A stretch of DNA of 64,000 nucleotides, taken from the NCBI GenBank assembly GCA_964016885.1, contig CAXHJY010001100.1:62001-126000 (forward strand). Reading direction: 5' to 3'. Below, in pieces: positions 37,877 through 38,710 of this stretch. The notes below the pieces were generated by a model. It had not been told where the DNA came from. It searched no databases and saw only the letters and a list, made by a program, of their open reading frames with translations. The position numbers and the translations under genes were made by a program. This DNA comes from Eledone cirrhosa. Taxonomy: Eukaryota. Positions within the stretch are counted from its first letter, which is position 1, and each line of letters opens with the position of its first letter.

Positions 37877-38340
37877 GGTGGCTGCCAACTCGTTTTCGAG
37901 TACGGCCACTACTTTATATCCATGTAGGAGAACCCCTACCGAAGCGCTGAACGAGTGTGACTTTTTAGTCCAGCCAGCGACTTGAAAACTCTGGTACAAA
38001 CACTACACTTGTGACAATTATTGACACATAGTGCTGGGCCCATGGTACCATGTGAGGACAAGTGCAGAGAGATCTCCAGATATAAAGCAATGCCTGTGCC
38101 GTGAAGCTTTTATAGTGAGCAAAGGCACTGCACAAAGCCAGTCCCACTCTCTTAACCAAGATGATATTTACCAAAAAGAAGAACAAGTCAACATCATTGG
38201 ATACCATCAGGGTTGCAGGTGTTATATCAGAGTTTTCCTTCTCCTAGAATTCTGCCTTGACAAAGGCTAAGGGGTCATCTCTCCCGGTGATTTTGGATGG
38301 CCATTGACTCTTAAGAGCTCCTTTGCCCTTTGACAGGTTT
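37877..38340 (-). mobile_element. Non-autonomous RTE-derived bipartite element (5'UTR-like plus 3' end); second, shorter copy at 62322-62704
   Basis: Reverse strand has an RTE 5'UTR-like TAGGAGAAGGAAAACTCTGA, a [19 protein letters not shown] zinc-finger-like end and a 3' hairpin abutting (TA)n. The two copies are highly similar. Confidence 0.7.
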
Positions 38341-38465
38341 ATGGTGCGCTTTCATCAGATAAAATACAGATTTGTTTTATAAATAAATATTGACATACCC
38401 GGAAAAAAAGACAACCTTAACAGTTGGAGCTTCCTCGATAGTCACAACAAATTAAATATAACCTC

Positions 38466-38507
<42 letters not shown>

Positions 38508-38710
38508 GAGGTTATATTTAATTTGTTGTGACTATCGAGGAAGCTCCAACTGTTAAGGTTGTCTTTTTTTCCGGGTATGTCAATATTTATTTATAAAACA
38601 AATCTGTATTTTATCTGATGAAAGCGCACCATAATTTGCCTTGGTTGCCCTTGAAATATGTATAATAAAATAAATATGGTTTTATAAATATAGTTTCCAT
38701 TTATTAATAT

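What the first reader, a model, noticed from the sequence alone, without database searches (positions are those of the whole stretch)
38339..38634. Inverted target-flank duplication at an RTE-derived element's 5' junction (site 1)
Seen: the 5' end of the minus-strand element (37877-38340) joins directly to a perfect 130-bp inverted copy (38339-38468) of the sequence beyond an (AT)n tract (38505-38634). This makes a perfect ~296-bp palindrome. Known: target-primed insertion normally gives direct TSDs. Inference: the cut (TA)n end folded back, copied its own flank and was then joined to the cDNA. An alternative is a pre-existing family C palindrome truncated by the insertion.
Basis: partly seen in the sequence, partly recalled or inferred. 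Interest (0 to 1): 0.7.

Follow-up and report, generated by a model that had tools for sequence, protein, structure and literature searches.

The report
Folded-back flank copy at retrotransposon junction
A short jumping-gene copy is joined directly to a mirror-image copy of the DNA beside it, a structure found at about 1 in 70 sampled copies of this element; it likely arose when the cut AT-repeat end folded back and copied itself during insertion, a rare repair outcome already described for human LINE-1.

Summary
In detail: 38339-38634 is a perfect 296-bp palindrome (130-bp arms, (AT)18 centre), and its left arm joins a 5'-truncated copy of a ~608-bp non-autonomous RTE-like element (over 10,600 copies) through 2 bp of microhomology. 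The junction is unique in the assembly. Both arms carry this family C copy's private chimeric joint and 3 private substitutions, so the arm was copied locally. None of 30 other family C copies is mirrored this way, so the pre-existing-palindrome alternative is unlikely.

The structure recurs but is a minority outcome: 4 of 283 copies sampled without regard to the junction (1.4%), 8 independent cases outside the window, 6 centred on (TA)n, several at the full-length 5' terminus. Other copies show direct TSDs or plain microsatellite joins.

Best reading: fold-back of the upstream (TA)n overhang, fill-in, then microhomology joining to the cDNA. A human L1 preprint (PMC11702581, Fig. S9C) draws the same product and mechanism; R2 snap-back junctions are related. 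The junction was not checked in raw reads. The scan earlier noted an insertion-linked local inversion elsewhere in this genome (e1-9591234). Verdict: a real, new germline example of a known junction class.

The parts
37877..38340 (-). 5'-truncated copy (positions 145-608 of ~608) of a non-autonomous bipartite RTE-like element; very young (2 differences in 464 bp from the majority base of sampled copies)
   Evidence: remnant C2H2 finger at 37939-38109, below Pfam cut-off
38339..38340 (.). 2-bp microhomology shared by the element's truncated 5' end and the inverted arm
38339..38468 (-). inverted, locally templated copy of 38505-38634 (the new arm)
   Evidence: 130/130 identity; carries the private chimeric joint and 3 private substitutions of the template copy
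38469..38504 (.). (AT)18 tract at the palindrome centre; inferred upstream half of the target site and fold-back point
   Evidence: role inferred
38505..38706 (+). family C repeat copy (template arm is 38505-38634); its TA-flanked end has 2,238 exact matches in the assembly
37864..37876 (.). (TA)6 at the element's 3' junction; inferred downstream half of the target tract (a TSD here would be invisible)
37674..37866 (+). family B hairpin-ended repeat, the 3' flank of the insertion; does not continue the inverted arm
62322..62704 (-). second truncated copy of the same element (positions 226-608), site 2
62702..62813 (-). site 2 inverted flank copy, 112 bp exact, 3-bp microhomology; template arm 62972-63083 beyond a compound TA microsatellite; not family C

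Best explanation
A young copy of an RTE-like non-autonomous element is joined at its truncated 5' end to an inverted copy of its own upstream flank, likely because the upstream (TA)n end left by target cleavage folded back on itself, was extended about 130 nt along the flank, and was then joined to the cDNA through 2 bp of microhomology. Shown: the palindrome, its local template, the unique junction, the microhomology, and recurrence at other copies. Inferred: target-primed reverse transcription at the TA tract between a family C and a family B copy; resection exposing a 3' overhang ending in self-complementary (TA)n; snap-back synthesis by a host polymerase or the element's RT; displacement and end-joining. 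It is an insertion scar with no sign of a function.
For: Arms 130/130. Junction unique. Private family C variants mirrored in both arms, chimeric joint absent from all other fetched loci. Element copy is among the youngest (2/464; sample median 1.6%), matching 0 arm mismatches. Same anatomy at site 2 with an unrelated flank. 4 of 283 unbiased copies and 5 of 117 junction-enriched intact 5' ends have a flank-derived inverted arm ending within 6 nt of the 5' junction, one locus shared, so 8 independent; 6 of the 8 end at or within 3 nt of the full-length 5' terminus, which a later random break would rarely hit. All 8 have a 3' flank starting (AT)3 or longer; in the enriched set 4 of 16 TA-tailed versus 0 of 28 ATGT-tailed copies (Fisher p=0.013). 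Precedent: PMC11702581 Fig. S9C caption; PMC11724301 abstract.
Against: Minority outcome (Wilson 95% interval 0.6-3.6%). The 5'-versus-3' contrast in the unbiased set is 4 versus 0 of 283, p=0.12, and the tail contrast there is 4/202 versus 0/81, p=0.58: not significant. The enriched-set test is small, post hoc, and counts L345 by eye. TA-centred inverted repeats without this element occur at about 1% of TA blocks, and one lies on a 3' side (L217). Pooled arm mismatches are 6 of 707 where about 14 would be expected from twice the elements' rare differences; L345 has 0 of 185 against 13 of 603, so some arms look younger than their element or have been homogenised. 2 of the 8 cases fold at a short AT-rich hairpin, not (TA)n. 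No read or empty-allele evidence.
Confidence: 0.68

Rival explanations
1. Same timing, other strand: the cDNA 3' end jumped onto the upstream flank at a 2-bp microhomology, copied it back towards the break, and annealed to the target through the self-complementary (TA)n (the R2 snap-back-to-target route). The product is identical.
For: PMC11371274 passages: cDNA 3' end priming synthesis on nearby target DNA before 5' junction formation. Microhomology of 2-3 bp at 5 of 10 junctions.
Against: Two bases are weak for invading duplex DNA, while (TA)n offers long self-pairing; 5 of 10 junctions have 2-6 extra nt rather than microhomology. No sequence test separates the two routes.
Confidence: 0.14
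2. A break at the (TA)n tract independent of insertion (before or after it) folded back and was repaired by microhomology joining; if later, it also deleted the element's first 144 bp.
For: TA-centred inverted repeats occur without this element; the window is enriched for them (6/131 versus 18/1277, p=0.02, partly ascertainment); arms are more alike than the element clock predicts in L345; both window copies are truncated.
Against: 6 of 8 outside cases join at the full-length 5' terminus; no TA remnant lies at the site 1 junction; the site 1 element is very young, leaving little time for a second event; 0 of 283 mirror cases at 3' ends.
Confidence: 0.11
3. A pre-existing TA-centred family C palindrome lost its outer 72 bp when the element inserted with a target-site deletion.
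For: Insertions into arms of pre-existing palindromes do occur (L113, L269); family C forms internal palindromes (25081-25757).
Against: 1 of 30 family C copies is mirrored across its TA tract, and that is two independent copies; family C's own palindromes are centred inside the element; the missing 72 bp are not on the far side; site 2 and the outside cases involve other flanks.
Confidence: 0.04
4. Library or assembly artefact (fold-back chimera) on a small contig.
For: The window lies on a high-numbered contig (C1127); the junction was not confirmed in reads.
Against: It needs two template switches; equivalent structures lie on contigs of 100-440 Mb, some with diverged arms (L169: 5 of 52).
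Confidence: 0.03

Closest known systems
Inverted duplication next to a de novo L1 insertion (PMC11702581, Fig. S9C; saw section 7, main-text passages and the supplementary caption)
   Same: Reciprocal target end folds back, is extended, displaced and joined to the RT end, giving an inverted duplication of flank at the 5' junction; rare (3 insertions with local inversions, one an inverted duplication).
   Different: There: human cultured cells, L1, fold-back by short chance homology. Here: assembled genome of an invertebrate, an RTE-like non-autonomous element, fold-back mostly at the (TA)n target itself, 10 cases with a rate estimate.
R2/PRINT 'snap-back' 5' junctions (PMC11371274, passages)
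   Same: Reverse-complement sequence of cDNA or nearby target added before 5' junction formation.
   Different: Attributed to the cDNA 3' end, mostly copying cDNA; site-specific RLE element; engineered system.
5' extra nucleotides of ZfL2 LINE inserts derived from flanking sequence (PMC4245944, passages)
   Same: Locally templated DNA at LINE 5' junctions; microhomology at truncated ends.
   Different: Described as several nucleotides; orientation not stated in the passages seen; here 22-185 bp inverted arms.
Templated inverted duplications at double-strand breaks in yeast (PMC11724301, abstract and outline)
   Same: Fold-back at microhomology next to a break, synthesis, then NHEJ or alt-EJ capture of the other end.
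   Different: No retroelement; most 5-34 bp.
Bipartite non-autonomous RTE elements such as RTESINE1/2, WALLSI3, Bov-A (PMC5786205, passages)
   Same: 5' UTR plus 3' end of an RTE-type LINE, internal deletion, no ORF.
   Different: This family was not matched to a named Repbase or Dfam entry; it keeps a zinc-finger remnant.

Membership tests
Bipartite non-autonomous RTE element | 5' part homologous to the 5' UTR of an autonomous LINE | tested here: met
   Positions 192-398 align at 69% to the 5' UTR of the L342 element; a relative, not shown to be the direct parent
Bipartite non-autonomous RTE element | 3' part homologous to the LINE's 3' end, no intact ORF | tested here: met
   Positions 577-606 align at 83% over 30 bp to the L342 3' end; C2H2 remnant E=3.5e-4, below cut-off; longest frames 92 aa
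Bipartite non-autonomous RTE element | Partner LINE has RTE architecture: one ORF with AP endonuclease and RT, no ORF1 (definition recalled) | tested here: met
   L342: Exo_endo_phos + RVT_1 in one frame, C2H2 fingers in a following frame; homologues are 840-1200 aa APE-RT proteins
Bipartite non-autonomous RTE element | RT groups with the RTE clade in a tree | not tested
   No clade-named reference among the 120 listed hits; the label RTE rests on architecture and recall
Target-primed non-LTR insertion | Fixed 3' end, variable 5' truncation, direct TSDs | tested here: met
   151 of 283 copies truncated beyond position 20; TSDs of 8 bp or more in 9 of 88 complete enriched copies, 6 non-microsatellite of 10-13 bp; 10 of 283 with twin-priming-like 5' inversions
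Fold-back inverted duplication at the reciprocal end (L1 Fig. S9C class) | Inverted copy of the adjacent upstream flank, template retained, joined to the element 5' end | tested here: met
Fold-back inverted duplication at the reciprocal end (L1 Fig. S9C class) | Self-annealing sequence at the fold | tested here: met
   (AT)18 centre; 6 of 8 outside cases TA-centred
Fold-back inverted duplication at the reciprocal end (L1 Fig. S9C class) | Absent from the pre-insertion allele | not testable with these tools
   No related genome held; no spanning record listed
Family C self-palindrome truncated by insertion | Family C copies mirrored across their terminal TA tract; arm continues beyond the insertion | tested here: not met
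   1 of 30, two independent copies; far side is family B

The most novel reading that the evidence does not exclude
Retroelements that target (TA)n carry a built-in fold-back primer: the target overhang pairs with itself, so microsatellite-targeted insertion systematically seeds 20-200-bp heritable palindromes, on the order of a hundred from this one family and more from other TA-targeting families, making it a main source of the TA-centred palindromes in this genome and a natural, countable read-out of how 5' junctions are repaired in the germ line.
Probability: 0.4. Interest if true: 0.5.

Novelty: new member of a known kind. Interest (0 to 1): 0.3.

Why it matters
The second half of non-LTR insertion (how the 5' end is joined) is poorly resolved, and fold-back products are known from a few cell-culture events. 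A genome with over 10,600 young copies of one element, inserted in self-complementary (TA)n and in non-self-complementary (ATGT)n, gives a natural test of whether target sequence decides the repair outcome. It would also explain part of the short palindromes that could make such AT-rich genomes fragile. The site itself shows no sign of function.

Tried and rejected
DNA similarity search of the own genome with the element returned nothing because common words are skipped; exact patterns were used instead. Rfam scan of 24000-42000 gave only sub-threshold miRNA-type matches caused by hairpins and microsatellites, none taken as real; no hammerhead among the 150 of 176 rows listed. Laying 4 runs on 38250-38468 was swamped by other copies of both repeats and listed no record spanning the junction; small-share runs are no evidence. 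The junction therefore stays untested in reads. No structure-based look-alike result was obtained for the partner ORF; a homologue search gave no clade names. Rejected as false positives after inspection: L113 and L269 (element inside an arm of an older palindrome), L202, L257, L323, L012, L055/L056, L190, L094, L385 (long non-microsatellite centres or distant arms), L178/L179, L182 (element-derived arms), L297 and L050 (ambiguous, arm ends in microsatellite about 100 bp or more from the junction). Rejected: that the feature is typical of the family or restricted to truncated copies. Five paper searches listed no report of TA-centred inverted flank duplications at RTE or cephalopod retroelements; the library lacks most subscription papers, so this is not proof of absence.

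Full report
Observation. The stretch 38339-38634 is a perfect palindrome: arms of 130 bp, identical, around (AT)18. Its left end overlaps by 2 bp the end of a minus-strand repeat at 37877-38340. The 33-nt junction occurs once in the 3.0-Gb assembly G000. The organism is likely an octopus; this rests on my recall of the repeat landscape and on earlier AI notes, not on a call.

The element. A 34-mer from it has 10,634 exact matches, its 5' 26-mer 9,429, and its 3' end 4,565 with an (AT)n tail and 4,844 with an (ATGT)n tail. Full copies are about 608 bp with a fixed 5' end. Positions 192-398 align at 69% to the 5' UTR, and 577-606 at 83% to the 3' end, of a single-ORF endonuclease-RT-zinc-finger element at L342. 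It is therefore a bipartite non-autonomous LINE derivative of the kind described for RTE (PMC5786205 passages); clade placement by tree was not done. Copies show the usual signs of target-primed insertion: 151 of 283 truncated, direct TSDs of 10-13 bp where the flank is not microsatellite, and 5' inversions in 10 of 283. The site 1 copy starts at position 145 and differs at 2 of 464 positions from the majority base, against a sample median of 1.6%.

Where the arm came from. The right arm lies in a family C copy (38505-38706). Family C copies begin and end at TA tracts and have copy-specific internal joints. This copy's joint is found twice in the window, once per arm, and in no other locus fetched; 3 substitutions that differ from the other copies are also mirrored. 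The left arm was therefore templated from this very copy. Of 30 other family C copies only L144 is mirrored across its TA tract, with 6 mismatches in 53 bp and both sides continuing, that is two separate insertions. Beyond the element's 3' end lies a family B copy, not the missing 72 bp. In L113 and L269, where the element did land inside an older palindrome, the arm continues on the 3' side. The pre-existing-palindrome alternative is thus unlikely.

Recurrence. Site 2 (62322-62704) has the same anatomy with an unrelated flank: 112 bp exact, 3-bp microhomology. For a rate, 403 hits with intact 3' ends were reduced to 354 by removing exact duplicates and copies with under 300 bp upstream or 150 bp downstream; 284 came from searches blind to the junction, 283 after merging one segmental duplicate. 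Much of this sample is from the first 95 Mb of contig C1 and 202 of 283 are TA-tailed, so it is not a random draw. Four have a flank-derived inverted arm ending within 6 nt of the 5' junction (L253 and L259 TA-centred; L090 and L304 tight hairpins): 1.4%, interval 0.6-3.6%. The mirror test at 3' ends gave 0 of 283 (p=0.12). A set enriched for non-microsatellite joins at intact 5' ends (120 loci of 276 matches, 117 distinct ends) held 5 cases: L163 (same as L253), L167, L169, L349, and L345, which the script's centre filter missed and I counted by eye. That makes 8 independent cases on several large contigs. Six end at or within 3 nt of the full-length 5' terminus; all 8 have 3' flanks starting with (AT)3 or longer. 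In the enriched set 4 of 16 TA-tailed and 0 of 28 ATGT-tailed copies were positive (p=0.013); in the unbiased set 4 of 202 versus 0 of 81 (p=0.58). Scaled to the family, this suggests tens to a few hundred cases (inference). Two cases in one window is roughly what one window among some 47,000 might show by chance (rough inference, no call).

Results against the reading. TA-centred inverted repeats are a general feature here: 18 of 1277 TA blocks in loci (3 of them the junction cases) and 6 of 131 in the window, so fold-back at (TA)n is not peculiar to this element. Pooled arm mismatches (6 of 707) are below the ~14 expected from the elements' rare differences, mainly through L345; copying errors or source variants in the element, conversion between arms, or a later origin in some cases could each explain it. 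Site 1 itself is consistent (0 rare differences, 0 arm mismatches). The junction was not confirmed in reads: one search covers the family C joint at depth 8-13 in one run but lists no spanning record.

Mechanism. Inferred steps: the element's endonuclease cuts a TA tract between the family C and family B copies and reverse transcription starts at the downstream half; synthesis stops at position 145; the upstream end is resected, its 3' (TA)n pairs with itself and is extended 130 nt along family C; the new strand is displaced and joined to the cDNA at a 2-bp match. A jump of the cDNA end onto the flank gives the same product and cannot be excluded. I put target fold-back at 0.68, cDNA jump at 0.14, an independent break at 0.11, a truncated family palindrome at 0.04 and artefact at 0.03.

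Comparison with what is known. The supplementary caption of PMC11702581 Fig. S9C describes an inverted duplication next to an L1 insertion made by fold-back of the reciprocal end, displacement of the new strand and ligation to the RT end (section 7 and passages). R2 snap-back junctions (PMC11371274 passages), flank-derived 5' extra nucleotides (PMC4245944 passages) and yeast fold-back insertions (PMC11724301 abstract) are related. Part 1 of 3 of an octopus repeat annotation (PMC13282606) lists recently active RTE families and does not discuss junctions in that part. Five searches listed no paper on this structure in RTE or cephalopod elements; bioRxiv supplements and most subscription papers could not be seen.

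Verdict. What may be new is the link to a self-complementary target, which has suggestive but small-sample support. Interest 0.3.

Noticed in passing
window 29932-30139: TA-centred inverted duplication (31 complex bp) whose outer end runs through a TA tract into what looks like the 5' end of a tRNA-type SINE at about 30224; possibly the same fold-back at another element's 5' junction.
   Followed up: partly
window 60400-60455: 20-bp inverted copy of a family B end across (AT)8, between two tail-to-tail family B copies.
   Followed up: partly
window 38615-38663 and other family C copies: Family C holds a CTGATGA...GAAA core resembling a minimal hammerhead ribozyme (motif recalled); not among the Rfam rows listed. 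Families B and C show variable-length inverted pieces, as recalled for Penelope-like elements or retrozymes.
   Followed up: partly
window 37751-37866, 60003-60072, 60279-60394, 63615-63711, 28606-28658: Family B copies each end in a hairpin with a different centre but a shared outer end at a TAT match to the TA tract.
   Followed up: no
element positions 193-210, many loci: 5' truncation hot spot: about 38 of 151 truncated copies start here, where the homology to the L342 5' UTR also begins; may mark a processing site or a shorter subfamily.
   Followed up: no
L304: Insertion with a roughly 130-bp direct duplication of upstream flank on the 3' side plus a 29-bp snap-back hairpin at the 5' junction.
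   Followed up: no
L113; L269: Element inserted in the TA tract inside an arm of older, complex inverted duplications of another repeat family.
   Followed up: partly
L191/L192 (G000:C2:44.049 Mb); L307: TA-centred palindromes that include element sequence: a 220-bp arm covering flank plus the element's first 166 bp (L191), and an inverted copy of the element's 3' end (L307).
   Followed up: no
L003, L004, L009, L036, L342: Copies often sit directly behind the 3' tail of the related autonomous-type element or of each other, in (ATGT)n tails.
   Followed up: no
window 8227-8410 and about 56393-56530: Further TA-centred inverted repeats with no retroelement end identified at their borders.
   Followed up: no
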